Positions 9,466 to 25,990 of a stretch of 40,286 bases of DNA are shown in pieces. The DNA lies in IMG/VR virus record IMGVR_UViG_2874968258_000009; one strand, given 5' to 3'. The stretch comes from a virus (taxonomy: Monodnaviria > Loebvirae > Hofneiviricota > Faserviricetes > Tubulavirales > Inoviridae). Positions within the stretch are counted from its first letter, which is position 1, and the number at the start of each line of letters is the position of its first letter. The notes under the pieces were generated by a model. That model saw only the letters and a program-made list of their open reading frames with translations, was not told the DNA's origin and did not search any database. Position numbers and translations under genes: made by a program.

Positions 9466-10490
9466 TATTTTTTCCCCGTATAAAGCGTCACACGCTCACC
9501 ATCAATAATTCCGCTCATCAACATCCCTTTGTAATTAAAACTGGATGCAGGAACGGCACGCAAAACACCGGCACCGTTAACAAGAATCACAAACGCCCTG
9601 CCTTCACTGGTCATTCTCCCTGATATACGCCACTCGGTTGAAAGTGGCGGTTCAGCTGGTTCTGAGGGAGTATCTGATGCTGGAGTAACAGCGGAAGAAC
9701 GAAACATGGCCGCATCACGTACATCTGTTGTAGTCAAATCTGGCGAGGGATCGCTTCGGCCAAACGTGCTGAAAAATGAGTAAATCAGCCAGCCTGACCC
9801 GATAAACATCAATGGAAAAAGCACAAGAAAGAACCTGACTTTGCCAGAATTCCAGATGCTCTGGCGTTTATCTGTCTGCTTTTCATTACCGTTATTTCCT
9901 TCATAGCTTTTGTAAAGTTCAAAAATATCAGGGTTATATTTATTGCGATAACTGGTGACGAGGTTGCTTTTATAGATTTTGTGGCCTGAATATACGTCAA
10001 TGCAGTAATGATTATTCAGGCCCAACGCTTTCAGCTTGCGCATCCGGTAAGTTGTTTCTATTTTGTCTTTCAGAAAGCGAGCAATATTAGAAAGTGACTG
10101 ATTTACAATAACCAAATCACAGCTAATACCCGTTTCAGGGTGCGTAAAATGACGATGTTCAGCAATAAATGATTTCTTCTCAGCCGTCATATCCTTATCG
10201 CTACCGAAGATTCGCCATGCTTCATCAATAACAATTAAATCACCAAACTGGCAAAAGCTCCCTTCCCCACCTTTAAAAGGAAAGAAATCTGCTTTAAGCA
10301 CATCATCATTATCCACAACAATAATTTCTCCCGTTGCATCAGGATAACGTTCGGTGATTTTATCTTTTTGTAAACCATAAATGTTCGTCACAACTCTCCG
10401 GCCGCTGGTAAATGCCGGAATAATGACATTGCAAACGGCTTCATAACTTTTTCCTGAGCCGGGTATGCCAATATATGCAGAAATAGCCAT
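9465..10490 (-). CDS. Zot/pI-family phage assembly ATPase
   Basis: 341 aa with an N-terminal Walker A motif (GIPGSGKS), a Walker B-like LIVIDEAW, and a C-terminal hydrophobic segment; positioned immediately upstream of the secretin gene as gene I is in Ff phages. Confidence 0.8.
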   Translation of the reverse strand: MAISAYIGIPGSGKSYEAVCNVIIPAFTSGRRVVTNIYGLQKDKITERYPDATGEIIVVDNDDVLKADFFPFKGGEGSFCQFGDLIVIDEAWRIFGSDKDMTAEKKSFIAEHRHFTHPETGISCDLVIVNQSLSNIARFLKDKIETTYRMRKLKALGLNNHYCIDVYSGHKIYKSNLVTSYRNKYNPDIFELYKSYEGNNGNEKQTDKRQSIWNSGKVRFFLVLFPLMFIGSGWLIYSFFSTFGRSDPSPDLTTTDVRDAAMFRSSAVTPASDTPSEPAEPPLSTEWRISGRMTSEGRAFVILVNGAGVLRAVPASSFNYKGMLMSGIIDGERVTLYTGKK

Positions 10491-10493
10491 AAC

Positions 10494-10781
10494 TCACCCT
10501 ATAACAGGAATACGTCGAATAATAAAACGAGTAGCCATTGCGGAGATAATCATACTAATCCCCTGTGGTAATTTACTCAGGTTAATGAAGTACCAGAATC
10601 CGTCTGATAAATTGGCAAACAGCGATGAGAGATTGCTTGAATCTGGCAGTAACTCAACAAGGATTTCAACGAAGCCCTGGACTACAAAATACAGCGCAAA
10701 GAATACGACGAATTTAATAATCAATGACCGGAATACAAAACCTAACAAAGTATTTAATGCACTAATCAGAATCCCAAACAT
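10494..10781 (-). CDS. Minor coat protein (pVI-like), hydrophobic
   Basis: 95-aa strongly hydrophobic ORF between the pIII-like and pI genes, the syntenic position of gene VI. Confidence 0.5.
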   Translation of the reverse strand: MFGILISALNTLLGFVFRSLIIKFVVFFALYFVVQGFVEILVELLPDSSNLSSLFANLSDGFWYFINLSKLPQGISMIISAMATRFIIRRIPVIG

Positions 10782-10793
10782 AGTTGCACTCCT

Positions 10794-12506
10794 TTAGGCA
10801 CTCAGAATAATACGGAGCGCAACAAATCCCCATATAATCAGAAATATGGTTTCTACGGCGCTTCTGTTCTGCTCAATTAACGGACAATGGGAGTCAATTC
10901 TGTACTGGTGATTAAACACGCTGAATTCAACAACGGGGCAGGATGCTGAACGAGAGCCGATGTTAAATTCGTTTGTAAAAGGCAACAAGTTAATAATTGG
11001 CGTTAAAATATCTCTTGCCGTTGGCGTTTCTTCAAGCTCAGGCTCTTTTACACCGGGATCTTCTCCCAAATCTATATTGCCATTATTTCCAGTGTCAGAT
11101 CCTGAGTTGTTATTAATGGTAATATCAATATTGACGTCAGCCCCTGCACTGTCAGATACAGGTGAAAGCATATCTAATAACGTTGGAGATAGCCTAAGTT
11201 CCGACATCGCAGAAGTTACTTCAGCCGGTGAAACCTCTTTAAACGGTAAGCCGTTATAATCGGCATTAACGGCAGCTTCAGACCACAGCTCGTTAATCAT
11301 GTCGGCAAGAAGTGCTGGCGATACACTAACACTATCAAGATACTCCAGATAATCAATCATGGACTCAATATTTCCGGCCTCCAGTACTTCCGTCATGGCT
11401 TTATATTTGGTATTGGTCCAGATAGTAAGCTCACTCTTTTCATCAATATCTTTTGCGGTGTAATCCTCTTTTTCAGGAACGGCGCAAATCGTCGAATATC
11501 CACCATTTGACTGATTAGTCGTTTTACAAGGCGTGTTGTGATACTGATATTGCTTGCCTGCTGTTAAATAAGCAACGCTGTAATACATGGGAAGCCCTGC
11601 TACATTTTCATACATGGGAATACCTGCGGGAAATGAAGATGCGGCCGGGTTGCTATACAAGTGTGTAATCTCAGGTATTTCATAAAATGAGGAAGGATAA
11701 GTAAACTTATAATTCTGTTCAGTAAAGGATACATCTCCATTACTGTTGACAACTTTATTCGTCACAGTGCGTTCAAAATTTGTTAGTGTTTCAGTATAAG
11801 TACGCGAGTTATAGTCATTAAGATAATTTCTGGCAATTTCAGTTGGATTATCACCATAGTAATAAATTAGCTCTTTCGAATCCTGATAATAATAAAGTGC
11901 ATTATCTGGCGTGGAATATCCTGTTTCAACACCTACAACTGGAGAACCCGCATCCACATTATTACGACTAACATGAAGGATTACCGGACTTAATTCCTGT
12001 GGTTCAAAATTAACGGTTATCGTCTTACTTTCACCACTTTGACCACTGTACGTTACTTCATATAAATTATCGGAAATCTTTTTACCGTTAGTCATTACCA
12101 TTACCGAGCCGTCAGATGAACTCAAAGAAGACGGAACAAAAGATGATACAGCAGCAGCAATACCCGCCCACGTTGCAACACCGCTCATTTTGTATGATGA
12201 GGCAGCAGGCAAGTATTCGGCAGCATTAGCCGCAGCGCGGCCAACAAAAACACGGGTTGCTGTAAGCTGTGATGCCGTATAAATCGCATCATTGGCAGCA
12301 AAGCGACGAACAAGCACCCGGCCAACGACTTTAGGAATAACAGCCCGCGCAGCCACTGCTGCAATTGCTGGTACAAATGAATATGAATATCGGGGAAAGG
12401 AAACCCAGAGAAAGGAAAAAATAAAGGAATAAACCGTCAGCCTCTTAGCCCAAGAATAACGACATAAGCTGAGACGATCCCCCATAAAAGGGAACCCAAT
12501 TTCCAT
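10794..12506 (-). CDS. Adsorption/minor coat protein (pIII-like); true start may be an internal Met
   Basis: Large ORF after the major coat gene with a Gly/Ser/Asn-rich linker (NNNSGSDTGNNGNIDLGEDPG) and a C-terminal membrane anchor (AVETIFLIIWGFVALRIILSA). Confidence 0.6.
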   Translation of the reverse strand: MEIGFPFMGDRLSLCRYSWAKRLTVYSFIFSFLWVSFPRYSYSFVPAIAAVAARAVIPKVVGRVLVRRFAANDAIYTASQLTATRVFVGRAAANAAEYLPAASSYKMSGVATWAGIAAAVSSFVPSSLSSSDGSVMVMTNGKKISDNLYEVTYSGQSGESKTITVNFEPQELSPVILHVSRNNVDAGSPVVGVETGYSTPDNALYYYQDSKELIYYYGDNPTEIARNYLNDYNSRTYTETLTNFERTVTNKVVNSNGDVSFTEQNYKFTYPSSFYEIPEITHLYSNPAASSFPAGIPMYENVAGLPMYYSVAYLTAGKQYQYHNTPCKTTNQSNGGYSTICAVPEKEDYTAKDIDEKSELTIWTNTKYKAMTEVLEAGNIESMIDYLEYLDSVSVSPALLADMINELWSEAAVNADYNGLPFKEVSPAEVTSAMSELRLSPTLLDMLSPVSDSAGADVNIDITINNNSGSDTGNNGNIDLGEDPGVKEPELEETPTARDILTPIINLLPFTNEFNIGSRSASCPVVEFSVFNHQYRIDSHCPLIEQNRSAVETIFLIIWGFVALRIILSA

Positions 12507-12530
12507 AATTCAATCTCCATAATAACCTCA

Positions 12531-12557
12531 AGTAAAACGGGCGATATTGCATCGCCC
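12531..12557 (-). terminator. Rho-independent terminator after the major coat gene
   Basis: Hairpin GGGCGAT-attgc-ATCGCCC (12539-12557) followed on the minus strand by GTTTTACTT; sits between pVIII and pIII as in Ff phages. Copies at +9504 and +19007. Confidence 0.55.
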
Positions 12558-12570
12558 ATGAATAATGAAT

Positions 12571-12804
12571 TTATGCGGATTTAACGGTACGCAATACCCA
12601 GCGAACGCCAGCGACACCGGCATAAAGTGTTACCAGTGAAGCAGCAACGGCCATAATCGCAACCAGAACTGTACTGAAATCAATGCTGTTCGTCAGCGGC
12701 GATAAATCAACACCACTTGATGCCGCTCCTTCTGCAGCGAAAGTCGCGCCAGAAACAGCCATTAATGCAGGTACAGCCAGAAAACTAACGATTTTTTTAA
12801 ACAT
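12571..12804 (-). CDS. Major coat protein (pVIII-like)
   Basis: 77 aa: signal peptide (MFKKIVSFLAVPALMAVSGATFA), acidic N-terminus, hydrophobic core and basic C-terminus (RWVLRTVKSA). Confidence 0.8.
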   Translation of the reverse strand: MFKKIVSFLAVPALMAVSGATFAAEGAASSGVDLSPLTNSIDFSTVLVAIMAVAASLVTLYAGVAGVRWVLRTVKSA

Positions 12805-12838
12805 AACTCTATCTCCATTACATTTTAAAGGTTCGCAT

Positions 12839-13090
12839 TCAAGCAGTACGAACCATCTTTATTACCTGTCCCACACCTACAGAAAAAAGCCAGAGCAGCA
12901 GGACAGAGCCAAAACCTAATATCCAGTAATTTCCCATTGCAGAATAATCAATTTGATGAAATGGTTCAGAACGTACCATTATTGCCTGACATTCTTTTGC
13001 ATTGTTCGCATTACATAAATAACCTTCAATACGGTAACCATTTTCAGGAATATGATTATCAAACTGAATATCGAAACCTGATGTATCCAT
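12839..13090 (-). CDS. Small membrane-anchored protein (possible minor coat/assembly protein)
   Basis: 83 aa with a C-terminal TM segment (YWILGFGSVLLLWLFSVGVG) between the ssDNA-binding and major coat genes. Confidence 0.4.
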   Translation of the reverse strand: MDTSGFDIQFDNHIPENGYRIEGYLCNANNAKECQAIMVRSEPFHQIDYSAMGNYWILGFGSVLLLWLFSVGVGQVIKMVRTA

Positions 13091-13092
13091 AA

Positions 13093-13410
13093 TCAGCCTT
13101 TTATTTCAGTAATGCCGCCATCTGATGAAATGTTATAAGTTACTCCTTCCCTCCCCTCCATTGACCAGACGCGAACATATACAGGTATCTGGACTAACTT
13201 ACCGATAAAATTATTTGCCTGATTCATTACACCGGCATTAACAAGAGCCTGAGATACACGAATAATAATCTGGTCTTGCTTAGTGCCGCCAAAACCATCA
13301 GGAATCTCTAAGCCAACACCAATTTCATTATAGTATCCCTGACCATTGACCTTATTACGCTGGCGAGCACCAAGCATTTTACCTTTTACAAAAAGACCAT
13401 AATTAGACAT
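13093..13410 (-). CDS. Putative ssDNA-binding protein (pV-like)
   Basis: 105-aa ORF immediately downstream of the replication initiator, the gene V position; assignment is by position and size only. Confidence 0.45.
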   Translation of the reverse strand: MSNYGLFVKGKMLGARQRNKVNGQGYYNEIGVGLEIPDGFGGTKQDQIIIRVSQALVNAGVMNQANNFIGKLVQIPVYVRVWSMEGREGVTYNISSDGGITEIKG

Positions 13411-13421
13411 ATCACTCTCCT

Positions 13422-14474
13422 TTAATGCCAGTTACTGGCATGTGAAATACGGTTATAATCGAAAATTAAACCTTTCTCATAAACCCATGATGGAATTTTG
13501 GCTGGTTTGGCTTCAAGAGTACGAACCAACGGAACAACGTTATTAGAATCCGGTGACTCACAATAAAAGTTAATATCTATTCCGAAAGAAAGTAGTTCTT
13601 TACGGTGTCGGTAGAATGTAGGTTTCGGTAACATCTCTTTCATGTTCGCGCCCTGCTTCCACAATAAATATGTAGACTGTATTTTTCTTGGGAGATTAAT
13701 TATTTTTTCATCAGTTAATATGGTATTTTGATTCATTTCTATTCTCCCTACATAGTCAGAGAATAATTTATTGGGCGTCTCAATATTCCAGCTATTACCA
13801 AGCGTAAGATTCAAATCAATTAATTCAGTTGTTCTTAATGTTAATTCAATGCGTAATTTATCTTTTGACCAGTCCAGTAAACCAGCTTTAACGAATTCGT
13901 CTGCCATCTGGTGCCCTTTTTTGCCAGATGTATGCTCATCATATTTTGAATAAAATTTCAGGCTCCAACGACGGGAGTTTTTCCCTAAGTAAACAGTGCC
14001 ACCTTTACCACAGGCGCGACCGTGGCGAGTTTTAGCTTTAAATTCTGCGGCATATAACCATGCGCGGACATTTTCTAATGTTGACAATGAATACATGTAA
14101 TTGATATCGATGCGCGAGATCTTAAATTGCCCTTCCATGACCTGCCGATAGGATGGTAGATCATGAGGAATATGCAGTAATGCCAATATTCTGGCGTAAG
14201 CTGTTAACACCAACCCTTGCAAATCGTCGGAACCTATAACAGAGTGACCTTGCAAAAACTTTGATGGATTACCGTCAATGTAGAGATGTGTTGCCCTACC
14301 TTCACCATCAGATCCAACAGACCTTACTTTCATTGTGGACTCATGCGAACCGCGAACGGTCAACCGTTTTACTGTTTCCCACTCCACTGCACCGTCAGCA
14401 TCGACGCTGACGACACTACCAGCCGGTAACGGTCGGTGTGTGCAAGGCAGGATTCCGGTAAACCAGTCGATCAT
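13422..14474 (-). CDS. Rolling-circle replication initiation protein (pII/RstA-like)
   Basis: 350-aa first gene of the minus-strand operon, divergent from an HTH regulator; length and position match pII/RstA-type initiators (..GGTVYLGKNSRRWSLKFYSKYDE..). Confidence 0.65.
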   Translation of the reverse strand: MIDWFTGILPCTHRPLPAGSVVSVDADGAVEWETVKRLTVRGSHESTMKVRSVGSDGEGRATHLYIDGNPSKFLQGHSVIGSDDLQGLVLTAYARILALLHIPHDLPSYRQVMEGQFKISRIDINYMYSLSTLENVRAWLYAAEFKAKTRHGRACGKGGTVYLGKNSRRWSLKFYSKYDEHTSGKKGHQMADEFVKAGLLDWSKDKLRIELTLRTTELIDLNLTLGNSWNIETPNKLFSDYVGRIEMNQNTILTDEKIINLPRKIQSTYLLWKQGANMKEMLPKPTFYRHRKELLSFGIDINFYCESPDSNNVVPLVRTLEAKPAKIPSWVYEKGLIFDYNRISHASNWH

Positions 14475-14645
14475 AAGTAGTCACACCCATCAAAATATGT
14501 GTCAATAGTCATTTGTGAGCAGATTGAATGGTCACAATGTAATATGCTCAGATCTGACAGTCAATACATTTGCAATGTTTAAATTGTCAGAAATGAGCAT
14601 CAAATCTAACTATTGAAAAACCACTGTTAAGATGGAGCCAAGTAG
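14475..14645. promoter_or_regulatory. Divergent promoter/operator region between the replication operon and the HTH regulator gene
   Basis: AT-rich 171-bp intergenic region containing two direct repeats, GTCAATAGTCATTTG (14501-14515) and GTCAATACATTTG (14560-14572), plus further TGTCA-containing motifs. Confidence 0.5.
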
Positions 14646-15092
14646 ATGGGCAACAATGAGCATGAAGTTATGGCGGACAAACAGAGAGCAGAACGTATCA
14701 AAAAGGTAATTCTGGAACACTCGACTTATGAAGAACTGGCCGAGAAGACTGGCATTAGCGTGAGTACGCTGGTCAGGATAGCGTCCGGCAAAACTGAACC
14801 TAAATTCAGTGACATCATTCAGATAGCTAAAATTACGGGTGCAGACTTAAACACCTTAGCTTATGGCTATGCTCTTGATGTTAAAGAAGAAGCTACCGAG
14901 CGGAAGCTAATCACTTCTGCGGATGGATATACTGATGAAGAAACCACTAACGCACATAATTTCATCGTGTGGAACATCAGGACACTGGAAAAACAAGATA
15001 TTCTGGCACTCGCAAGGCAGGTTTCTGCATTAAGTTCATACACTTACAGTACTAAAATGTTTATGAAAAAAGCGGTGTCTGGAGAAGAGTAA
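14646..15092 (+). CDS. XRE/Cro-C1-type helix-turn-helix transcriptional regulator (candidate phage repressor)
   Basis: 148 aa with an HTH segment (YEELAEKTGISVSTLVRIASGKTEPKFSDIIQIAKITGADLNTLAYG); divergently oriented to the replication gene. Confidence 0.7.
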   Translation: MGNNEHEVMADKQRAERIKKVILEHSTYEELAEKTGISVSTLVRIASGKTEPKFSDIIQIAKITGADLNTLAYGYALDVKEEATERKLITSADGYTDEETTNAHNFIVWNIRTLEKQDILALARQVSALSSYTYSTKMFMKKAVSGEE

Positions 15093-15121
15093 AAGGATTA
15101 ACAGTCTCAGGAATGAGACAA

Positions 15122-15156
15122 ACGTGCAGTATTACCAACACTGCACGTTCTTTATT
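15122..15156 (+). terminator. Rho-independent terminator after the regulator gene
   Basis: Hairpin ACGTGCAGT-attaccaaca-CTGCACGT followed by TCTTTATT. Copies at +9504 and +19007. Confidence 0.6.
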
Positions 15157-15191
15157 GTGCGAATTCTGAACAGTAAAAAAGGATCAAAAGG

Positions 15192-15614
15192 ATGAGTAGA
15201 AATAACGAAACAAGCGGCGTTGAACTGGTTGTCGTCGGCGTATTTGCTTTCTGTCTGGCAGTTGTTGCCTGGCTAATGAAAACTTTCGATGTTGAATGGC
15301 AAACAGCACTGGAAACTGCGCCTGGCCTGATAGTCTGGCTGCTTGTTGTTGGGGCGGGGATCTTTTTCGGGATCAAAATGGAAACAGGCCTTGTTCGCTG
15401 GGGTGCTCCACTGGCGATCGCCCTTCTGATTCCGGTATTCAAACCAATTCTTAAGGAAGCTGCCGGAGTACGTGAAATGGGTGGGTTGGTTTTCGATGAT
15501 ATGGTTTCGTGGTACGGAACTGGCTGGGGAATGTCGTTAATGTTTTTCGGTATTCTTATCGTCGGATACGGTCTGCTTTATTGGTGGCACAGAAGAAACT
15601 CTTATTATTGGTAA
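15192..15614 (+). CDS. Small integral membrane protein (about 4 predicted TM helices), function unknown
   Basis: 140 aa with hydrophobic segments LVVVGVFAFCLAVVAWL, LIVWLLVVGAGIFFGI, APLAIALLIPVF and MSLMFFGILIVGYGLLYWW; Shine-Dalgarno AAGGA upstream. Confidence 0.6.
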   Translation: MSRNNETSGVELVVVGVFAFCLAVVAWLMKTFDVEWQTALETAPGLIVWLLVVGAGIFFGIKMETGLVRWGAPLAIALLIPVFKPILKEAAGVREMGGLVFDDMVSWYGTGWGMSLMFFGILIVGYGLLYWWHRRNSYYW

Positions 15615-15681
15615 GCAATTTTGCTCCATATATCAGCGGTGAAGTTCAGAGGTGGTTATTTTTTAGTCTTGAGGAAAGATA

Positions 15682-16476
15682 ATGAAGCCAGAAAAAGCTA
15701 TCGAGATATTAAAAAGACAACGGGAGCAAATCCCAGCAATACAAAATGAACGAAGGAGTACAGGAAATAACCCAAGTTTTAACTTATGGCAAAGAAACAC
15801 TAAGACCGCCATATCAAAAATATTTGGTGAAGAGTCAGATCACAAAAAAGAATTTGGCTCAATTCGATACTCTTTAATGGCATTTGTTGGTGATACACCA
15901 GATTATGTTTTCGATAACGCATTTTGTAGTGGTTTAGATGAAGCACATTCTCTTCTTACGTCTATGATTGCTGAGATTGAAGAATATGGAATTGACGGAA
16001 ATTTCATAGAGACAAAAAATGATCCCGTAGCTCTTGTTGAACTAATTTGCCATCAATTTCATAAGGTTGCAAGACAGCTACAGCAACGACACGATAATAG
16101 ACAAACCATTGAAATAAATGACGAATATGACGTTCAGGATTTATTTCATGCTCTTTTGAAGATTCATTTCGAGGATGTCAGACCAGAAGAATATACGCCA
16201 AGCTATGCAGGATCTTCAACACGAGTTGACTTCTTGTTAAAGAATGAAAAAATCATTATCGAGTTAAAGAAAACGAGAAAAAATCTCAAGCAAAAAGAAG
16301 TTGGTGAGCAATTAATTGTTGATATAGCTCATTATCAAACGCATCCTGATTGCGAAACTTTAGTGTGTTTTGTATATGACCCTGAAGGTAGAATTGCCAA
16401 TCCAATTGGTGTGGAGAATGACCTTGAGCGTTGTACAAATTCAATTTCGGTAAAAGTAATAATCTCACCAAAATAA
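15682..16476 (+). CDS. Hypothetical protein with a PD-(D/E)xK-like nuclease motif (inferred from motif only)
   Basis: 264 aa. C-terminal half has acidic residues (DEYDVQD) followed by RVDFLLKNEKIIIELKK, i.e. a D ... E-x-K spacing as in PD-(D/E)xK folds; Shine-Dalgarno GAGGAAAG upstream. Confidence 0.55.
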   Translation: MKPEKAIEILKRQREQIPAIQNERRSTGNNPSFNLWQRNTKTAISKIFGEESDHKKEFGSIRYSLMAFVGDTPDYVFDNAFCSGLDEAHSLLTSMIAEIEEYGIDGNFIETKNDPVALVELICHQFHKVARQLQQRHDNRQTIEINDEYDVQDLFHALLKIHFEDVRPEEYTPSYAGSSTRVDFLLKNEKIIIELKKTRKNLKQKEVGEQLIVDIAHYQTHPDCETLVCFVYDPEGRIANPIGVENDLERCTNSISVKVIISPK

Positions 16477-16486
16477 AAGGACATAT

Positions 16487-16753
16487 ATGGCTACTGTAGA
16501 TGATGTTGCACAATGGATGAAATCAGAGCTGGAAAACACAAACTGGCTATATCAAGAAACTGTTGTATATAAAATAAAAGAGTTATTTGGCGATACTTTC
16601 GTATATTTGAATGCTAATGGAAATTTATCCATTGATAAAAAAGTATTAGCGAAGTTTAGAAAGCTAACTAATGACACGGTTATATGGGAGAGAGGTGAAA
16701 AAGCATGGCGAAAAAGACAAGGTTATGATGCCCCTGGTCGACAGCAGGACTAA
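16487..16753 (+). CDS. Hypothetical small protein, tightly coupled to the upstream 264-aa gene
   Basis: 88-aa ORF starting 11 nt after the upstream stop, with Shine-Dalgarno AAGGA; basic C-terminus. Confidence 0.5.
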   Translation: MATVDDVAQWMKSELENTNWLYQETVVYKIKELFGDTFVYLNANGNLSIDKKVLAKFRKLTNDTVIWERGEKAWRKRQGYDAPGRQQD

Positions 16754-16787
16754 ATAATTGGTTCGCACAATGACGTTATGCTAAAGA

Positions 16788-16824
16788 GGCCGCTGCGGGA
16801 TTCGATTTTCGCAGCGGCCTTTTC
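16788..16824 (+). terminator. Rho-independent terminator adjacent to the att site
   Basis: GGCCGCTGCG-loop-CGCAGCGGCC followed by TTTTC. Copies at +9504 and +19007. Confidence 0.6.
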
Positions 16825-16853
16825 AACATAACGAGTCGTACATTATGCGCACC
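16825..16853 (-). other. Phage attP-type XerCD site at the copy1/copy2 junction
   Basis: Minus-strand reading GGTGCGCATAA-TGTACGACTCG-TTATGTTGAAA: perfect XerC arm, divergent and longer central region, XerD-like arm 9/11. Confidence 0.6.
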
Positions 16854-16993
16854 AATGGTAAGGATGGCAGAATCTGGCGGGAATCGTTGACACTGGCCGT
16901 CAACTGGCTACTATCGACAGTGATTCAAAATCATCCGTTTCTCCAAACGAATCAGAATCAAATGTCTGTCAGCAGTAAGTGAACGGCCTGACC

Positions 16994-17242
16994 TCACCAA
17001 TCAGGCCTGTTCATCCAGTTAGTTGGTAAATCTGTACCTGATACACGAGAATCAAACACCACTTCTTCAGTGCCATCACCATGATGCCGGATAATCTGGT
17101 AACCGGATTGCGGGTTCTGGCTCTCAGCTTCATAAGCAGCCCGGAATGCTGGATCTTTGAGAAGCATCACTTTCAGCTCCTGATGTGTCATGAATTTTTC
17201 CATGATAAGCCCCGATGAATGCTGCCGCGCCGAATCAGCCAT
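16994..17242 (-). CDS. Hypothetical small protein (copy 2)
   Basis: Identical to the 7490-7738 product. Confidence 0.4.
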   Translation of the reverse strand: MADSARQHSSGLIMEKFMTHQELKVMLLKDPAFRAAYEAESQNPQSGYQIIRHHGDGTEEVVFDSRVSGTDLPTNWMNRPDW

Positions 17243-17724
17243 AACGCTGAAAATGGAAACTGTACGGCTTGGCCAACCCCGGACAGCAACAAAACAAGTT
17301 TTGTCACTGACCGGCGTTATCTTTCAAAACAGACAGTTAACGATTTTTTGTCTGGTGTTTATGCGTGAAATTTCGTGCGTACGAAATTCACCACCAATAA
17401 ACAAACGGACGATGACTGACCGGAAAAGCAATGCCGTCAGCATCATGACCACGCATTACCTGATTGAGAAGACTTCTGACTTCACGGCGCTCAGGCCTGG
17501 TCATCATCATATTGCGATACCAGGACGGCGATTTATCAAACCATCTGGCACAACTGGCAAAATGTGAACCTACACGACGATAAGACTTAAGGCGGCCACC
17601 GGGAAGTCGGTCACGCGCCTTATTTTTTACAGACATAATAAATCCTCTAAGTAACTGAATACCTAGAAGATGTCGTACTGTTCATACCCCATAAAAGTTA
17701 ACGCCATAATAAAAATCCATACAA

Positions 17725-18969
17725 TCAGTTCAGGTTGTCCCGGAACAGTTCACCGCTCCTCGCGGCGCTGCGGGGCGTCGCCCTGCTCCGGTCAACCTTT
17801 CTGACCTGAAGCATCACCATAATATCAGTCTTGTTGCTTTCACTGGTACGGGAACCGAAGAAGCTCCAGCCGGAACTGGCCTTACTGTCTTTCTGTTCAG
17901 CAAGGCCACCAAGTAAAATAATATCACCATCTGCAAGGCTGACTTCGGTTGTTACATCACGCTTGATAAGGGTTGGCGAGTTATTGACGCCGGTTTCAGT
18001 GGTCACAAAGTTGGAAAGCTGCTGCTGAATCTTGAGATCCATTGTCCGACTTTTGATTGATGGCGTCACGTTAAACAAAACACCGCTGGAACGATATTCA
18101 ACGGATTGCGTTGTCGTATTGTTATTCACCGTAACACTGCCCAGTACTGGCACATCAGAGCCGACTGAAAAAGACGCTGAGGCATTATTTTTTACCCGCA
18201 GTCGTGGCGCACTGACAACAGTAAAACGACTGTCGGTTTTCAGCAGATTGAAAATGGCATCAATGGAGCCGGTTCGAATATTGATAAAATTATCCAGTCC
18301 GGCAGCACCAACTGAAATATTGAATTTATCAGACAGAATTTTAGCCGCTAAAAGAATGCCGGAGCCGTCAGACTGCGAGGTCTGAACCTCAAAAACATAA
18401 CCAGAAACAACCACTTCATCACTCATCGTATCCAGCGAAGTGACCAGTGTTTTCAGGATGGCGATATCCTCTTTCGTACCATAATAAACCAGAATATCAC
18501 CGGTTCGATTGATGTAGTTGCTTGCCCCTGATGAACCTTTTAGCGAATCGTCAGAAATCACGGCTCCACTGTTATTGAAGGAGCCTGAAACGTAGCCGCC
18601 AAGAATATCAGACAGGTAGGCAACAGAACGGTACTGAGGCGTATAAGTCCATGTATAACGTGGCTTAACCGGCTCTTTCGGCGTATAGGGCGCGATAAAA
18701 TCAACACCCTTTTTCGTCCATATTCGAATGTTCATATTGCCAAGATAACGGGTTACAAATTCCCGTTCATCAATATCAGGTGTTAACCTGAATGTAATCA
18801 TTCGTTCATCATTAACAAGCTGTGGATCTAGCATATACGGGACTTTAAGCACCTCACTGTAAATAAGAGAAATAGCCTCCGGTAGCTTGACTTTATTTAA
18901 TTCAAGCTCTGACCCTGCGAAAGCACATGAAGAAAATAGTAGCGTTAATGCGAGTAAAATCTTTTTCAT
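17725..18969 (-). CDS. Phage secretin (pIV-like), copy 2
   Basis: Identical to the 8221-9465 product. Confidence 0.8.
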   Translation of the reverse strand: MKKILLALTLLFSSCAFAGSELELNKVKLPEAISLIYSEVLKVPYMLDPQLVNDERMITFRLTPDIDEREFVTRYLGNMNIRIWTKKGVDFIAPYTPKEPVKPRYTWTYTPQYRSVAYLSDILGGYVSGSFNNSGAVISDDSLKGSSGASNYINRTGDILVYYGTKEDIAILKTLVTSLDTMSDEVVVSGYVFEVQTSQSDGSGILLAAKILSDKFNISVGAAGLDNFINIRTGSIDAIFNLLKTDSRFTVVSAPRLRVKNNASASFSVGSDVPVLGSVTVNNNTTTQSVEYRSSGVLFNVTPSIKSRTMDLKIQQQLSNFVTTETGVNNSPTLIKRDVTTEVSLADGDIILLGGLAEQKDSKASSGWSFFGSRTSESNKTDIMVMLQVRKVDRSRATPRSAARSGELFRDNLN

Positions 18970-19994
18970 TATTTTTTCCCCGTATAAAGCGTCACACGCT
19001 CACCATCAATAATTCCGCTCATCAACATCCCTTTGTAATTAAAACTGGATGCAGGAACGGCACGCAAAACACCGGCACCGTTAACAAGAATCACAAACGC
19101 CCTGCCTTCACTGGTCATTCTCCCTGATATACGCCACTCGGTTGAAAGTGGCGGTTCAGCTGGTTCTGAGGGAGTATCTGATGCTGGAGTAACAGCGGAA
19201 GAACGAAACATGGCCGCATCACGTACATCTGTTGTAGTCAAATCTGGCGAGGGATCGCTTCGGCCAAACGTGCTGAAAAATGAGTAAATCAGCCAGCCTG
19301 ACCCGATAAACATCAATGGAAAAAGCACAAGAAAGAACCTGACTTTGCCAGAATTCCAGATGCTCTGGCGTTTATCTGTCTGCTTTTCATTACCGTTATT
19401 TCCTTCATAGCTTTTGTAAAGTTCAAAAATATCAGGGTTATATTTATTGCGATAACTGGTGACGAGGTTGCTTTTATAGATTTTGTGGCCTGAATATACG
19501 TCAATGCAGTAATGATTATTCAGGCCCAACGCTTTCAGCTTGCGCATCCGGTAAGTTGTTTCTATTTTGTCTTTCAGAAAGCGAGCAATATTAGAAAGTG
19601 ACTGATTTACAATAACCAAATCACAGCTAATACCCGTTTCAGGGTGCGTAAAATGACGATGTTCAGCAATAAATGATTTCTTCTCAGCCGTCATATCCTT
19701 ATCGCTACCGAAGATTCGCCATGCTTCATCAATAACAATTAAATCACCAAACTGGCAAAAGCTCCCTTCCCCACCTTTAAAAGGAAAGAAATCTGCTTTA
19801 AGCACATCATCATTATCCACAACAATAATTTCTCCCGTTGCATCAGGATAACGTTCGGTGATTTTATCTTTTTGTAAACCATAAATGTTCGTCACAACTC
19901 TCCGGCCGCTGGTAAATGCCGGAATAATGACATTGCAAACGGCTTCATAACTTTTTCCTGAGCCGGGTATGCCAATATATGCAGAAATAGCCAT
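18969..19994 (-). CDS. Zot/pI-family assembly ATPase, copy 2
   Basis: Identical to the 9465-10490 product. Confidence 0.8.
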   Translation of the reverse strand: MAISAYIGIPGSGKSYEAVCNVIIPAFTSGRRVVTNIYGLQKDKITERYPDATGEIIVVDNDDVLKADFFPFKGGEGSFCQFGDLIVIDEAWRIFGSDKDMTAEKKSFIAEHRHFTHPETGISCDLVIVNQSLSNIARFLKDKIETTYRMRKLKALGLNNHYCIDVYSGHKIYKSNLVTSYRNKYNPDIFELYKSYEGNNGNEKQTDKRQSIWNSGKVRFFLVLFPLMFIGSGWLIYSFFSTFGRSDPSPDLTTTDVRDAAMFRSSAVTPASDTPSEPAEPPLSTEWRISGRMTSEGRAFVILVNGAGVLRAVPASSFNYKGMLMSGIIDGERVTLYTGKK

Positions 19995-19997
19995 AAC

Positions 19998-20285
19998 TCA
20001 CCCTATAACAGGAATACGTCGAATAATAAAACGAGTAGCCATTGCGGAGATAATCATACTAATCCCCTGTGGTAATTTACTCAGGTTAATGAAGTACCAG
20101 AATCCGTCTGATAAATTGGCAAACAGCGATGAGAGATTGCTTGAATCTGGCAGTAACTCAACAAGGATTTCAACGAAGCCCTGGACTACAAAATACAGCG
20201 CAAAGAATACGACGAATTTAATAATCAATGACCGGAATACAAAACCTAACAAAGTATTTAATGCACTAATCAGAATCCCAAACAT
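19998..20285 (-). CDS. pVI-like minor coat protein, copy 2
   Basis: Identical to the 10494-10781 product. Confidence 0.5.
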   Translation of the reverse strand: MFGILISALNTLLGFVFRSLIIKFVVFFALYFVVQGFVEILVELLPDSSNLSSLFANLSDGFWYFINLSKLPQGISMIISAMATRFIIRRIPVIG

Positions 20286-20297
20286 AGTTGCACTCCT

Positions 20298-22010
20298 TTA
20301 GGCACTCAGAATAATACGGAGCGCAACAAATCCCCATATAATCAGAAATATGGTTTCTACGGCGCTTCTGTTCTGCTCAATTAACGGACAATGGGAGTCA
20401 ATTCTGTACTGGTGATTAAACACGCTGAATTCAACAACGGGGCAGGATGCTGAACGAGAGCCGATGTTAAATTCGTTTGTAAAAGGCAACAAGTTAATAA
20501 TTGGCGTTAAAATATCTCTTGCCGTTGGCGTTTCTTCAAGCTCAGGCTCTTTTACACCGGGATCTTCTCCCAAATCTATATTGCCATTATTTCCAGTGTC
20601 AGATCCTGAGTTGTTATTAATGGTAATATCAATATTGACGTCAGCCCCTGCACTGTCAGATACAGGTGAAAGCATATCTAATAACGTTGGAGATAGCCTA
20701 AGTTCCGACATCGCAGAAGTTACTTCAGCCGGTGAAACCTCTTTAAACGGTAAGCCGTTATAATCGGCATTAACGGCAGCTTCAGACCACAGCTCGTTAA
20801 TCATGTCGGCAAGAAGTGCTGGCGATACACTAACACTATCAAGATACTCCAGATAATCAATCATGGACTCAATATTTCCGGCCTCCAGTACTTCCGTCAT
20901 GGCTTTATATTTGGTATTGGTCCAGATAGTAAGCTCACTCTTTTCATCAATATCTTTTGCGGTGTAATCCTCTTTTTCAGGAACGGCGCAAATCGTCGAA
21001 TATCCACCATTTGACTGATTAGTCGTTTTACAAGGCGTGTTGTGATACTGATATTGCTTGCCTGCTGTTAAATAAGCAACGCTGTAATACATGGGAAGCC
21101 CTGCTACATTTTCATACATGGGAATACCTGCGGGAAATGAAGATGCGGCCGGGTTGCTATACAAGTGTGTAATCTCAGGTATTTCATAAAATGAGGAAGG
21201 ATAAGTAAACTTATAATTCTGTTCAGTAAAGGATACATCTCCATTACTGTTGACAACTTTATTCGTCACAGTGCGTTCAAAATTTGTTAGTGTTTCAGTA
21301 TAAGTACGCGAGTTATAGTCATTAAGATAATTTCTGGCAATTTCAGTTGGATTATCACCATAGTAATAAATTAGCTCTTTCGAATCCTGATAATAATAAA
21401 GTGCATTATCTGGCGTGGAATATCCTGTTTCAACACCTACAACTGGAGAACCCGCATCCACATTATTACGACTAACATGAAGGATTACCGGACTTAATTC
21501 CTGTGGTTCAAAATTAACGGTTATCGTCTTACTTTCACCACTTTGACCACTGTACGTTACTTCATATAAATTATCGGAAATCTTTTTACCGTTAGTCATT
21601 ACCATTACCGAGCCGTCAGATGAACTCAAAGAAGACGGAACAAAAGATGATACAGCAGCAGCAATACCCGCCCACGTTGCAACACCGCTCATTTTGTATG
21701 ATGAGGCAGCAGGCAAGTATTCGGCAGCATTAGCCGCAGCGCGGCCAACAAAAACACGGGTTGCTGTAAGCTGTGATGCCGTATAAATCGCATCATTGGC
21801 AGCAAAGCGACGAACAAGCACCCGGCCAACGACTTTAGGAATAACAGCCCGCGCAGCCACTGCTGCAATTGCTGGTACAAATGAATATGAATATCGGGGA
21901 AAGGAAACCCAGAGAAAGGAAAAAATAAAGGAATAAACCGTCAGCCTCTTAGCCCAAGAATAACGACATAAGCTGAGACGATCCCCCATAAAAGGGAACC
22001 CAATTTCCAT
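20298..22010 (-). CDS. pIII-like adsorption protein, copy 2
   Basis: Identical to the 10794-12506 product. Confidence 0.6.
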   Translation of the reverse strand: MEIGFPFMGDRLSLCRYSWAKRLTVYSFIFSFLWVSFPRYSYSFVPAIAAVAARAVIPKVVGRVLVRRFAANDAIYTASQLTATRVFVGRAAANAAEYLPAASSYKMSGVATWAGIAAAVSSFVPSSLSSSDGSVMVMTNGKKISDNLYEVTYSGQSGESKTITVNFEPQELSPVILHVSRNNVDAGSPVVGVETGYSTPDNALYYYQDSKELIYYYGDNPTEIARNYLNDYNSRTYTETLTNFERTVTNKVVNSNGDVSFTEQNYKFTYPSSFYEIPEITHLYSNPAASSFPAGIPMYENVAGLPMYYSVAYLTAGKQYQYHNTPCKTTNQSNGGYSTICAVPEKEDYTAKDIDEKSELTIWTNTKYKAMTEVLEAGNIESMIDYLEYLDSVSVSPALLADMINELWSEAAVNADYNGLPFKEVSPAEVTSAMSELRLSPTLLDMLSPVSDSAGADVNIDITINNNSGSDTGNNGNIDLGEDPGVKEPELEETPTARDILTPIINLLPFTNEFNIGSRSASCPVVEFSVFNHQYRIDSHCPLIEQNRSAVETIFLIIWGFVALRIILSA

Positions 22011-22074
22011 AATTCAATCTCCATAATAACCTCAAGTAAAACGGGCGATATTGCATCGCCCATGAATAATGAAT

Positions 22075-22308
22075 TTATGCGGATTTAACGGTACGCAATA
22101 CCCAGCGAACGCCAGCGACACCGGCATAAAGTGTTACCAGTGAAGCAGCAACGGCCATAATCGCAACCAGAACTGTACTGAAATCAATGCTGTTCGTCAG
22201 CGGCGATAAATCAACACCACTTGATGCCGCTCCTTCTGCAGCGAAAGTCGCGCCAGAAACAGCCATTAATGCAGGTACAGCCAGAAAACTAACGATTTTT
22301 TTAAACAT
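22075..22308 (-). CDS. Major coat protein, copy 2
   Basis: Identical to the 12571-12804 product. Confidence 0.8.
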   Translation of the reverse strand: MFKKIVSFLAVPALMAVSGATFAAEGAASSGVDLSPLTNSIDFSTVLVAIMAVAASLVTLYAGVAGVRWVLRTVKSA

Positions 22309-22342
22309 AACTCTATCTCCATTACATTTTAAAGGTTCGCAT

Positions 22343-22594
22343 TCAAGCAGTACGAACCATCTTTATTACCTGTCCCACACCTACAGAAAAAAGCCAGAGC
22401 AGCAGGACAGAGCCAAAACCTAATATCCAGTAATTTCCCATTGCAGAATAATCAATTTGATGAAATGGTTCAGAACGTACCATTATTGCCTGACATTCTT
22501 TTGCATTGTTCGCATTACATAAATAACCTTCAATACGGTAACCATTTTCAGGAATATGATTATCAAACTGAATATCGAAACCTGATGTATCCAT
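22343..22594 (-). CDS. Small membrane-anchored protein, copy 2
   Basis: Identical to the 12839-13090 product. Confidence 0.4.
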   Translation of the reverse strand: MDTSGFDIQFDNHIPENGYRIEGYLCNANNAKECQAIMVRSEPFHQIDYSAMGNYWILGFGSVLLLWLFSVGVGQVIKMVRTA

Positions 22595-22596
22595 AA

Positions 22597-22914
22597 TCAG
22601 CCTTTTATTTCAGTAATGCCGCCATCTGATGAAATGTTATAAGTTACTCCTTCCCTCCCCTCCATTGACCAGACGCGAACATATACAGGTATCTGGACTA
22701 ACTTACCGATAAAATTATTTGCCTGATTCATTACACCGGCATTAACAAGAGCCTGAGATACACGAATAATAATCTGGTCTTGCTTAGTGCCGCCAAAACC
22801 ATCAGGAATCTCTAAGCCAACACCAATTTCATTATAGTATCCCTGACCATTGACCTTATTACGCTGGCGAGCACCAAGCATTTTACCTTTTACAAAAAGA
22901 CCATAATTAGACAT
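22597..22914 (-). CDS. Putative ssDNA-binding protein, copy 2
   Basis: Identical to the 13093-13410 product. Confidence 0.45.
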   Translation of the reverse strand: MSNYGLFVKGKMLGARQRNKVNGQGYYNEIGVGLEIPDGFGGTKQDQIIIRVSQALVNAGVMNQANNFIGKLVQIPVYVRVWSMEGREGVTYNISSDGGITEIKG

Positions 22915-22925
22915 ATCACTCTCCT

Positions 22926-23978
22926 TTAATGCCAGTTACTGGCATGTGAAATACGGTTATAATCGAAAATTAAACCTTTCTCATAAACCCATGATGGAAT
23001 TTTGGCTGGTTTGGCTTCAAGAGTACGAACCAACGGAACAACGTTATTAGAATCCGGTGACTCACAATAAAAGTTAATATCTATTCCGAAAGAAAGTAGT
23101 TCTTTACGGTGTCGGTAGAATGTAGGTTTCGGTAACATCTCTTTCATGTTCGCGCCCTGCTTCCACAATAAATATGTAGACTGTATTTTTCTTGGGAGAT
23201 TAATTATTTTTTCATCAGTTAATATGGTATTTTGATTCATTTCTATTCTCCCTACATAGTCAGAGAATAATTTATTGGGCGTCTCAATATTCCAGCTATT
23301 ACCAAGCGTAAGATTCAAATCAATTAATTCAGTTGTTCTTAATGTTAATTCAATGCGTAATTTATCTTTTGACCAGTCCAGTAAACCAGCTTTAACGAAT
23401 TCGTCTGCCATCTGGTGCCCTTTTTTGCCAGATGTATGCTCATCATATTTTGAATAAAATTTCAGGCTCCAACGACGGGAGTTTTTCCCTAAGTAAACAG
23501 TGCCACCTTTACCACAGGCGCGACCGTGGCGAGTTTTAGCTTTAAATTCTGCGGCATATAACCATGCGCGGACATTTTCTAATGTTGACAATGAATACAT
23601 GTAATTGATATCGATGCGCGAGATCTTAAATTGCCCTTCCATGACCTGCCGATAGGATGGTAGATCATGAGGAATATGCAGTAATGCCAATATTCTGGCG
23701 TAAGCTGTTAACACCAACCCTTGCAAATCGTCGGAACCTATAACAGAGTGACCTTGCAAAAACTTTGATGGATTACCGTCAATGTAGAGATGTGTTGCCC
23801 TACCTTCACCATCAGATCCAACAGACCTTACTTTCATTGTGGACTCATGCGAACCGCGAACGGTCAACCGTTTTACTGTTTCCCACTCCACTGCACCGTC
23901 AGCATCGACGCTGACGACACTACCAGCCGGTAACGGTCGGTGTGTGCAAGGCAGGATTCCGGTAAACCAGTCGATCAT
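22926..23978 (-). CDS. Rolling-circle replication initiator, copy 2
   Basis: Identical to the 13422-14474 product. Confidence 0.65.
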   Translation of the reverse strand: MIDWFTGILPCTHRPLPAGSVVSVDADGAVEWETVKRLTVRGSHESTMKVRSVGSDGEGRATHLYIDGNPSKFLQGHSVIGSDDLQGLVLTAYARILALLHIPHDLPSYRQVMEGQFKISRIDINYMYSLSTLENVRAWLYAAEFKAKTRHGRACGKGGTVYLGKNSRRWSLKFYSKYDEHTSGKKGHQMADEFVKAGLLDWSKDKLRIELTLRTTELIDLNLTLGNSWNIETPNKLFSDYVGRIEMNQNTILTDEKIINLPRKIQSTYLLWKQGANMKEMLPKPTFYRHRKELLSFGIDINFYCESPDSNNVVPLVRTLEAKPAKIPSWVYEKGLIFDYNRISHASNWH

Positions 23979-24149
23979 AAGTAGTCACACCCATCAAAAT
24001 ATGTGTCAATAGTCATTTGTGAGCAGATTGAATGGTCACAATGTAATATGCTCAGATCTGACAGTCAATACATTTGCAATGTTTAAATTGTCAGAAATGA
24101 GCATCAAATCTAACTATTGAAAAACCACTGTTAAGATGGAGCCAAGTAG

Positions 24150-24596
24150 ATGGGCAACAATGAGCATGAAGTTATGGCGGACAAACAGAGAGCAGAACGT
24201 ATCAAAAAGGTAATTCTGGAACACTCGACTTATGAAGAACTGGCCGAGAAGACTGGCATTAGCGTGAGTACGCTGGTCAGGATAGCGTCCGGCAAAACTG
24301 AACCTAAATTCAGTGACATCATTCAGATAGCTAAAATTACGGGTGCAGACTTAAACACCTTAGCTTATGGCTATGCTCTTGATGTTAAAGAAGAAGCTAC
24401 CGAGCGGAAGCTAATCACTTCTGCGGATGGATATACTGATGAAGAAACCACTAACGCACATAATTTCATCGTGTGGAACATCAGGACACTGGAAAAACAA
24501 GATATTCTGGCACTCGCAAGGCAGGTTTCTGCATTAAGTTCATACACTTACAGTACTAAAATGTTTATGAAAAAAGCGGTGTCTGGAGAAGAGTAA
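24150..24596 (+). CDS. XRE-type HTH regulator, copy 2
   Basis: Identical to the 14646-15092 product. Confidence 0.7.
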   Translation: MGNNEHEVMADKQRAERIKKVILEHSTYEELAEKTGISVSTLVRIASGKTEPKFSDIIQIAKITGADLNTLAYGYALDVKEEATERKLITSADGYTDEETTNAHNFIVWNIRTLEKQDILALARQVSALSSYTYSTKMFMKKAVSGEE

Positions 24597-24695
24597 AAGG
24601 ATTAACAGTCTCAGGAATGAGACAAACGTGCAGTATTACCAACACTGCACGTTCTTTATTGTGCGAATTCTGAACAGTAAAAAAGGATCAAAAGG

Positions 24696-25980: not shown

Positions 25981-25990
25981 AAGGACATAT

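What the first reader, a model, noticed from the sequence alone, without database searches (positions are those of the whole stretch)
16825..16853. Junction anatomy: perfect dif at attL, phage-type sites with an extended central region internally, variant XerC arm at attR
In dif orientation attL is GGTGCGCATAA-TGTATA-TTATGTTAAAT (canonical), while the inter-copy sites (16825-16853, 26329-26357) are GGTGCGCATAA-TGTACGACTCG-TTATGTTGAAA and attR (35831-35860) is TGTGCGCATAA-TGTACGACTCG-TTATGTTGAAA. The crossover therefore maps to the XerC-arm/central-region boundary, consistent with XerC-catalysed exchange. The phage site has a central region about 5 nt longer than dif with only a partial XerD arm, and the arm next to chromosomal DNA carries a G-to-T change. 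Integration leaves a canonical dif at attL, so dimer resolution and further tandem integration remain possible.
Basis: partly seen in the sequence, partly recalled or inferred. Interest (0 to 1): 0.7.

Follow-up and report, generated by a model that had tools for sequence, protein, structure and literature searches.

The report
YpfΦ/CUS-1 prophage junctions at dif
These sites are the expected junctions of three tandem copies of a well-known filamentous phage (YpfΦ/CUS-1 family) that uses the host XerC/XerD recombinases to insert at the chromosome's dif site, so the finding is real and correctly read in outline but is already-described biology.

Summary
The sequences are there, with the site spanning 16821-16853 rather than 16825-16853. 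The window holds three near-identical 9,504-nt copies of a YpfΦ/CUS-1-type filamentous prophage at dif. Its closest relatives found are Shigella sonnei.

- **Window-left end:** a canonical dif.
- **Inter-copy junctions and window-right junction:** GGTGCGCATAA-TGTACGACTCG-TTATGTTGAAA-type sites.

Two points need correcting.

1. **The "G-to-T change" is not a change.** Prophage-free genomes of the same lineage have an empty dif reading TGTGCGCATAA-TGTATA-TTATGTTAAAT. The T is therefore the native chromosomal XerC arm, and the phage supplied the canonical G in the regenerated dif. The same pattern appears in Y. pestis, Citrobacter freundii and other hosts. This confines the exchange to the shared GTGCGCATAA-TGTA.
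2. **The "phage site with a long central region" is only half of attP.** About 34 nt away lies a second, inverted dif-like site, GGTTCGCACAA-TGACG-TTATGCTAAAG. In the packaged strand the two sites pair into a hairpin (-31 kcal/mol, z = -7.9). This is the CTXφ attP1/attP2 architecture, and it has already been proposed for CUS-1 and YpfΦ.

Multiple YpfΦ-like copies in S. sonnei have also been reported. The finding is ordinary and of low novelty.

The parts
7322..7349 (-). Regenerated canonical dif, GGTGCGCATAA-TGTATA-TTATGTTAAAT. The XerD arm and central region (7322-7338) are chromosomal. The XerC arm (7339-7349) comes from the phage.
   Evidence: Empty sites of the same lineage have T, not G, at XerC-arm position 1. 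In every host examined the regenerated dif is preceded by phage DNA 'ccttaccatt'.
7339..35849 (-). Array of three tandem copies (9,504-nt period) of a YpfΦ/CUS-1-type filamentous prophage. The packaged (+) strand is the window - strand.
   Evidence: copies identical apart from one T. (G2P Rep, G5P, Zot, secretin all on the - strand). (Rep 100% aa identical, 99.6% nt over 7.8 kb to Y. pestis YpfΦ).
16821..16853 (-). Inter-copy site B (attP1-like): GGTGCGCATAA-TGTACGACTCG-TTATGTTGAAA. It has a full XerC arm, an 11-nt central region starting with TGT as dif does, and a 9/11 XerD arm. This is the strand predicted to be cut by XerC.
   Evidence: Identical in YpfΦ inter-copy junctions. Compare CTXφ attP1 with its 12-nt central region (PMC3089051).
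16760..16786 (+). Site A (attP2-like), inverted relative to site B: GGTTCGCACAA-TGACG-TTATGCTAAAG. It pairs with site B in the single-stranded phage genome.
   Evidence: Conservation between prophages with different cargo begins at this site.
16788..16819 (.). G+C-rich stem-loop (GGCCGCTGCG / 12-nt loop / CGCAGCGGCC) that caps the XerD-arm end of the folded attP hairpin.
   Evidence: minimum-free-energy structure. The stem is kept while the loop varies in SCU-101, 10035776-3 and JNE12-007.
26325..26357 (-). Second inter-copy site B, identical to 16821-16853. Its site A is at 26264-26290 (+).
35828..35860 (-). Hybrid junction at the window-right end: native chromosomal XerC arm TGTGCGCATAA (35850-35860) joined to the phage central region and XerD-like arm (35828-35849). 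Its site A is at 35767-35793 (+).
   Evidence: Empty dif of the same lineage has the same T-variant arm and the same flank.
13422..14474 (-). Replication initiator (G2P/RstA-like). It marks the coding and packaged strand.
   Evidence: PF05144 1e-73, PF05155 4e-34. (100% identical to the Y. pestis copy).
14646..16753 (+). Divergently transcribed module: HTH repressor-like gene (14646-15092), a 140-aa ORF, and cargo consisting of a DpnII/MboI-like nuclease-domain protein (15682-16476) and DUF6953 (16487-16753). The cargo part differs from YpfΦ and CUS-1.

Best explanation
The window shows a CTXφ-type Xer-exploiting filamentous prophage of the YpfΦ/CUS-1 family, present in three tandem copies at the dif site of a Shigella sonnei-like chromosome.

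**Proposed mechanism (inferred from sequence and from published work on CTXφ)**
1. In the packaged (+) single strand, which is the window - strand, site B (GGTGCGCATAA-TGTACGACTCG-TTATGTTGAAA) pairs with the inverted site A. This forms a hairpin with a XerC-arm duplex and a XerD-arm duplex.
2. The bottom strand has only 5 central nucleotides, so about 6 of site B's 11 central nucleotides are bulged out.
3. XerC cuts after GGTGCGCATAA on the phage strand and on dif.
4. The shared TGT stabilises the single strand exchange.
5. Replication converts the resulting junction into an integrated prophage.

**Outcome (shown by the sequence)**
- The host's own XerC arm stays beside the phage central region at the far junction. 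Here that arm is TGTGCGCATAA.
- The phage's XerC arm is joined to the host central region and XerD arm, which regenerates a canonical dif at the phage's 3' end.
- That dif can still resolve chromosome dimers and accept further phage copies.
- The inter-copy junctions equal the replicative-form attP region. They allow phage production from the array by rolling-circle replication, as described for CTXφ.
For: **Shown here**
- Junction sequences.
- Three near-identical 9,504-nt copies.
- An inovirus gene set and no integrase among all ORFs of 125 aa or more.
- Core genes lie on the - strand. The packaged strand therefore carries site B in the XerC-cleavable 5'-XerC arm-TGT-3' orientation.
- An inverted second site sits next to every site B.
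- The hairpin folds at -31.2 kcal/mol against -12.2 +/- 2.4 for shuffles, z = -7.9.
- Prophage-free genomes encoding the identical neighbouring 572-aa protein have an empty dif reading TGTGCGCATAA-TGTATA-TTATGTTAAAT, with exactly the window's flanks.
- The same segregation of arms is seen in other hosts. The far-junction arm is GGTGCACATAA in Y. pestis, AGTGCGCATAA in C. freundii P10159 and three further loci, and GATGCGCATAA in another host. The regenerated dif always carries the phage arm GGTGCGCATAA.
- Family identity: Rep is 100% aa identical, the genome is 99.6% nt identical over 7.8 kb, and the attP block is 100% identical to YpfΦ.

**From the literature**
- CTXφ attP1 and attP2 have 12- and 7-nt central regions. 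They integrate as folded ssDNA by XerC alone. The attP sites of CUS-1 and YpfΦ show the same features (PMC3089051).
- YpfΦ and CUS-1 are listed as CTXφ-type (PMC4246890).
- YpfΦ forms tandem arrays of 2-4 copies with an imperfect dif between copies (PMC4266046).
- Multiple YpfΦ-like copies occur in S. sonnei (PMC10354491).
Against: - The junction sequences alone cannot separate ssDNA integration from integration of the double-stranded replicative form through site B. Both give the same products.
- The complementary strand also folds well (-29.1 kcal/mol, z = -6.4), so the strand asymmetry of the hairpin is weak.
- Site B hardly varies between relatives, so no informative covariation between the two sites was found.
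- The native dif of Y. pestis, C. freundii and the other hosts was not checked in empty sites here. Only the S. sonnei lineage marker is fully controlled.
- For YpfΦ, superinfecting phage was reported to insert preferentially between copies rather than at the regenerated dif (PMC4266046). The origin of the array may therefore not be simple successive integration at dif.
Confidence: 0.85

Rival explanations
1. VGJφ-type route. The double-stranded replicative form integrates through site B alone: XerC exchanges one strand pair and replication resolves the junction. Site A would play no part, and the prophage could excise again.
For: It predicts the same junction sequences and the same segregation of XerC-arm markers. 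The complementary strand folds almost as well as the packaged strand.
Against: As a duplex, site B has an 11-bp spacer between the arms. Known double-stranded Xer substrates have 6-8 bp, and VGJ-type attP has 7 (PMC3089051). Site A plus the capping hairpin is conserved at 100% as one 96-99-nt block, while the adjacent cargo is swapped. The architecture matches CTXφ attP1/attP2 (12/7 nt against 11/5 nt here). YpfΦ and CUS-1 are classed as CTXφ-type in the literature.
Confidence: 0.1
2. The T at XerC-arm position 1 of the window-right junction is a post-integration mutation or a sequencing error in a site that is no longer under selection.
For: None of the 155 E. coli complete genomes that cover at least 80% of this 68-nt junction query matches it exactly; the best hit is 98.5%. 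Of these, UTI89, Combat2C1, SCU-101 and KFu015 were inspected and have G there.
Against: Four independent prophage-free assemblies of the same lineage carry the same T in an otherwise intact dif, with identical flanks. One of them is S. sonnei KCCM 41282 (CP041511).
Confidence: 0.03
3. The three copies did not arise by repeated Xer integration at the regenerated dif. They could come from homologous recombination of a replicative form with a resident copy, from insertion at the inter-copy imperfect site, or from unequal sister exchange.
For: The copies are identical apart from one homopolymer T, which fits any recent amplification. Insertion of YpfΦ between resident copies has been reported (PMC4266046).
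Against: Nothing in the sequence discriminates between these routes, because all of them produce the same inter-copy junction. For CTXφ, successive integrations are the favoured source of arrays (PMC3442271).
Confidence: 0.3

Closest known systems
YpfΦ (CUS-2) of Yersinia pestis and CUS-1 of E. coli O18:K1:H7
   Same: Rep is 100% aa identical. Nucleotide identity is 99.6% over 7.8 kb to YpfΦ and 99.4% over 8.3 kb to the UTI89 prophage. Site A, the hairpin and site B are identical. Both integrate at dif and form tandem arrays with an imperfect dif between copies.
   Different: About 1.1-1.6 kb of cargo next to site A is replaced. Here it is a DpnII/MboI-like nuclease-domain protein plus DUF6953. 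The host is a Shigella sonnei-like lineage whose native dif has T at XerC-arm position 1.
CTXφ of Vibrio cholerae (CTXφ-type IMEX)
   Same: Two inverted dif-like sites with unequal central regions: attP1 12 nt and attP2 7 nt, against 11 nt and 5 nt here. Homology to dif is limited to the first 3 nt (TGT) on the XerC side. A functional dif is regenerated at the 3' end, and tandem arrays form.
   Different: The two sites are about 34 nt apart and are joined by a simple G+C stem-loop, giving a compact hairpin of about 100 nt. In CTXφ the sites are about 90 nt apart in a 150-nt forked hairpin. The arms match E. coli-type dif rather than V. cholerae dif1. The phage encodes its own secretin. To my knowledge CTXφ does not.
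VGJφ-type IMEX
   Same: A filamentous phage at dif with a XerC-side exchange completed by replication.
   Different: VGJ-type phages have a single double-stranded attP with a 7-bp central region and can excise again. Here there are two inverted sites and an 11-nt spacer.

Membership tests
CTXφ-type IMEX (ssDNA integration by XerC) | No phage-encoded recombinase; the element sits at the host dif | tested here: met
   Pfam scan of every ORF of 125 aa or more in the unit found no integrase. The insertion lies exactly in dif, as shown by empty sites.
CTXφ-type IMEX (ssDNA integration by XerC) | Two dif-like sites in inverted orientation that can pair into a hairpin presenting XerC and XerD arms | tested here: met
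   Site A at 16760-16786 (+) and site B at 16821-16853 (-). DNA fold -31.2 kcal/mol, z = -7.9, with both arms paired and an asymmetric central loop.
CTXφ-type IMEX (ssDNA integration by XerC) | The split site lies on the packaged (+) strand in the XerC-cleavable orientation | tested here: met
   Core phage genes are on the window - strand. That strand reads 5'-GGTGCGCATAA-TGTACG. Taking the coding strand to be the packaged strand is established inovirus knowledge and was not measured here.
CTXφ-type IMEX (ssDNA integration by XerC) | Crossover on the XerC side; central-region homology to dif only at the XerC side | tested here: met
   Natural markers confine the exchange to GTGCGCATAA-TGTA. 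If the Y. pestis far-junction arm is that host's native arm, the interval narrows to CATAA-TGTA. TGT is shared with dif and is kept in all attP variants inspected.
CTXφ-type IMEX (ssDNA integration by XerC) | ssDNA is the actual substrate; XerC catalysis only; integration is irreversible | not testable with these tools
   This needs integration assays with catalytic mutants and folded oligonucleotide substrates.
YpfΦ/CUS-1 phage group | Near-identical core genome and attP | tested here: met
VGJφ-type IMEX | A single double-stranded attP with a central region of about 7 bp | tested here: not met
   There are two inverted sites, and site B has an 11-nt spacer. Compare the VGJ attP table in PMC3089051.
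TLCφ-type IMEX | attP lacks a XerD-binding arm; XerD makes the first exchange | tested here: not met
   Site B has a 9/11 XerD arm. The crossover maps to the XerC side. Which enzyme acts first was not testable.

The most novel reading that the evidence does not exclude
Each integration overwrites the host's XerC arm with the phage's arm. In this lineage that converts a T-variant dif to the canonical sequence. It also leaves imperfect sites with an 11-nt spacer that might themselves act as secondary Xer targets, as hinted for YpfΦ. If either effect changed the efficiency of chromosome dimer resolution or drove array dynamics, the phage would be editing and multiplying its host's dif locus. The evidence here does not exclude this, and it does not support any functional consequence.
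Probability: 0.08. Interest if true: 0.4.

Novelty: already known. Interest (0 to 1): 0.15.

Why it matters
The finding adds little that is new. The phage family, its two-site attP, its tandem arrays and its presence in multiple copies in S. sonnei are all published.

The one useful by-product is a clean natural experiment. This host's dif has a private T at XerC-arm position 1, and other hosts have other arm variants. The arms segregate exactly as the XerC-side, CTXφ-type model predicts. This confirms the model for the YpfΦ/CUS-1 family from genome data alone. It also shows that these phages replace the host's XerC arm with their own.

Tried and rejected
- **Phage collection:** a megablast of the unit found nothing.
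- **Sequencing error or late mutation for the T variant:** considered because no complete E. coli genome matches the junction exactly. Rejected once same-lineage empty sites showed the T.
- **Link to a shared 'ACA|AACATAAACC' flank:** this flank appears in about 200 E. coli genomes (L012, L013). It turned out to be a degraded attP remnant with unrelated inserted sequence. It remains unexplained and is not shown to be related.
- **Covariation between sites A and B:** attP variants were examined. Site B is nearly invariant, so the test is uninformative.
- **Strand asymmetry of the hairpin:** only about 2 kcal/mol, so not decisive.
- **The G+C hairpin as a terminator for the cargo genes:** the consensus scan does not call it, because the loop is 12 nt and only 4 T follow.
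- **Other dead ends:** an exact-protein look-up of the left-flank 197-aa ORF found nothing. Gonzalez et al. 2002 (PMC135385) is not held. Val et al. 2005 was not sought directly, so the published CUS-1 attP drawing was not compared; its content is cited only through PMC3089051.

Full report
**1. The observation**

In dif orientation (window - strand) the sites are as follows.

| Position | Sequence | Role |
|---|---|---|
| 7322-7349 | GGTGCGCATAA-TGTATA-TTATGTTAAAT | canonical E. coli dif |
| 16821-16853 and 26325-26357 | GGTGCGCATAA-TGTACGACTCG-TTATGTTGAAA | inter-copy sites |
| 35828-35860 | TGTGCGCATAA-TGTACGACTCG-TTATGTTGAAA | window-right junction |

Otherwise they are right. The sites delimit three direct copies with a 9,504-nt period. 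The copies differ only by one T in a T-run of copy 3.

**2. What the element is**

Each copy carries an inovirus gene set on the window - strand:
- G2P-type replication initiator (13422-14474)
- G5P ssDNA-binding protein
- small coat-like ORFs
- a 570-aa adsorption-protein-sized ORF
- a DUF2523 protein
- Zot/pI
- a secretin

A helix-turn-helix repressor-like gene and cargo genes lie on the + strand (14646-16753). No recombinase was found among any ORF of 125 aa or more.

The replication protein is 100% identical to the one in Yersinia pestis NCTC5923. The unit is 99.6% identical over 7.8 kb to that YpfΦ prophage. It is 99.4% identical over 8.3 kb to the prophage of E. coli UTI89. The element is therefore a YpfΦ/CUS-1 family phage in which only about 1.1-1.6 kb of cargo has been exchanged.

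**3. The host and the empty site**

The flanks are E. coli-like, with dif lying between a fimbrial region and hipBA. They are at most about 97% identical to any complete E. coli genome. The window also holds three IS1 copies.

An exact look-up of the neighbouring 572-aa HipA-derived protein found four assemblies. One of them is CP041511, which a paper lists as Shigella sonnei KCCM 41282. In all four, the left and right flanks of the window are joined directly. The empty site reads ATTTAACATAA-TATACA-TTATGCGCACA|AACATAAACC on the window + strand.

The native dif of this lineage is therefore TGTGCGCATAA-TGTATA-TTATGTTAAAT. Other E. coli genomes have G at that position in two empty sites. The four occupied sites inspected (UTI89, Combat2C1, SCU-101 and KFu015) also have G.

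**4. What the T means**

The canonical G in the regenerated dif at 7349 came from the phage. This natural marker places the exchange inside the 14 nt shared by both partners, GTGCGCATAA-TGTA. That interval contains the known XerC cleavage position at the boundary between arm and central region.

The same segregation is seen in other hosts carrying this phage:

| Host | XerC arm at the far junction |
|---|---|
| Y. pestis | GGTGCACATAA |
| Citrobacter freundii P10159 (CP012554, identified through) and three other loci | AGTGCGCATAA |
| One further host | GATGCGCATAA |

In every case the regenerated dif is 'ccttaccatt-GGTGCGCATAA-TGTATA-TTATGTTAAAT', carrying the phage arm. Empty sites for those hosts were not checked here.

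**5.

About 34 nt from every phage-type site lies a second dif-like site in the opposite orientation, GGTTCGCACAA-TGACG-TTATGCTAAAG (16760-16786, 26264-26290, 35767-35793). A G+C stem-loop separates the two sites.

In the packaged strand (window - strand) the two sites pair as follows:
- The XerC arms form a duplex with 9 Watson-Crick pairs, one T·G wobble and one mismatch.
- The XerD arms form a duplex.
- The bottom strand has 5 central nucleotides, so about 6 of the 11 central nucleotides of the cut strand bulge out.

The fold energy is -31.2 kcal/mol, against -12.2 +/- 2.4 for shuffles (z = -7.9).

This 96-99-nt block is 100% identical in YpfΦ and in the UTI89 prophage, although the neighbouring cargo is unrelated. 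In variant phages the central region and the loop change, but three things are kept: the inverted layout, the stem, and the TGT next to the XerC arm.

This is the CTXφ arrangement. CTXφ attP1 is AGTGCGTATTA-TGTGGCGCGGCA-TTATGTTGAGG, with 12 central nt. CTXφ attP2 is AATGCGTATTA-TACGCCA-TTATGTTACGG, with 7 central nt (PMC3089051).

**6. Mechanism**

*Shown by the sequence:* the junction sequences, the segregation of arms, the strand of the genes and the foldability of the attP block.

*Inferred from the CTXφ literature:*
1. The folded (+) ssDNA is bound by XerC and XerD.
2. XerC exchanges one pair of strands with dif, stabilised by the shared TGT.
3. Replication resolves the pseudo-Holliday junction.
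4. The active attP is masked in the double-stranded prophage, so integration is irreversible.
5. Tandem copies allow new phage genomes to be produced by rolling-circle replication.

The gene orientation was a test that could have failed. The site split by integration (site B) is the one that reads 5'-XerC arm-TGT on the coding, packaged strand, as the model requires.

The sequence cannot exclude integration of the double-stranded form through site B alone. An 11-bp spacer and the strict conservation of site A argue against that route. The complementary strand folds nearly as well (-29.1 kcal/mol), so the fold asymmetry is weak evidence.

**7. Comparison with what is known**

- Reviews list YpfΦ and CUS-1 as CTXφ-type elements (PMC4246890).
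- They state that the attP sites of these phages have the features needed for ssDNA integration (PMC3089051).
- The YpfΦ review describes a pair of inverted XerC/XerD sites, arrays of 2-4 copies and an imperfect dif between copies (PMC4266046).
- A 2023 survey reports multiple copies of YpfΦ-like phage in Shigella sonnei (PMC10354491).

The junction anatomy is therefore already-known biology. The window is one more instance of it, with a different cargo.

**8. Verdict**

The crossover side and the regenerated dif are right. The "changed" arm and the stand-alone long-spacer attP are misread.
- Novelty: already known.
- Interest is low.

The only modest addition is that host-specific XerC-arm variants give genome-only confirmation of the XerC-side exchange. 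They also show that the phage replaces the host's XerC arm with its own.

Noticed in passing
window 15682-16753; loci L006, L009, L012: The slot between site A and the regulatory genes holds different cargo in otherwise near-identical prophages. The window has a DpnII/MboI-like nuclease-domain protein (PADLOC Aga_Helical-REase class II, 1e-34) plus DUF6953. KFu015 has a Doc-family toxin, AB_24_S34 an Abi-family protein, and AR_0006 a SIR2 protein. It looks like a defence or toxin cargo hotspot.
   Followed up: partly
L012 281-402, L013 (E. coli AR_0006 and M2021-10044802/2-E); about 200 genomes: A degraded attP remnant at dif. Site A is the variant GGTTCGCATAA. Site B is cut after TTTTCAACATA. 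About 49 nt of unrelated sequence follow, ending in ...TTTGACA and abutting AACATAAACC. Its origin is unexplained.
   Followed up: partly
window 26847 region (copy-1 equivalent 7835-7840): Copy 3 lacks one T of an intergenic T6 run. This is the only difference among the three copies. It could be a homopolymer sequencing error or a real mutation.
   Followed up: no
window 4388-5085, 5246-5943, 37932-38629; 36112-37830: Three IS1 copies lie in 40 kb. hipA is truncated and fused into a 572-aa ORF. This fits a Shigella-type, IS-eroded terminus region.
   Followed up: partly
L026 1576-1668 and 11079-11172: A metagenome scaffold carries two copies in tandem with different cargo and a different site A (GGTTCGCATAA against GGTTCGCACAA). 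Arrays can therefore be heterologous, which favours independent integrations over duplication.
   Followed up: no
L025 5261-5354 and 6859-6886 (Photorhabdus tasmaniensis): A remnant with a diverged hybrid site, GGTGCGCCTAA-TGTACGAATCG-TTATGTTGAAA, lies about 1.5 kb from a dif reading GGTTCGCCTAA-TGTATA-TTATGTTAAAT. Here the arm at dif differs from the arm at the hybrid site in the opposite sense to the other hosts.
   Followed up: no
window 35861-35872 and empty sites L001, L014: The chromosomal DNA directly outside the XerC arm reads ...GGTTTATGTT|GGTGCGCATAA. It repeats the TTATGTT core of a XerD arm next to dif. This may be coincidence.
   Followed up: no
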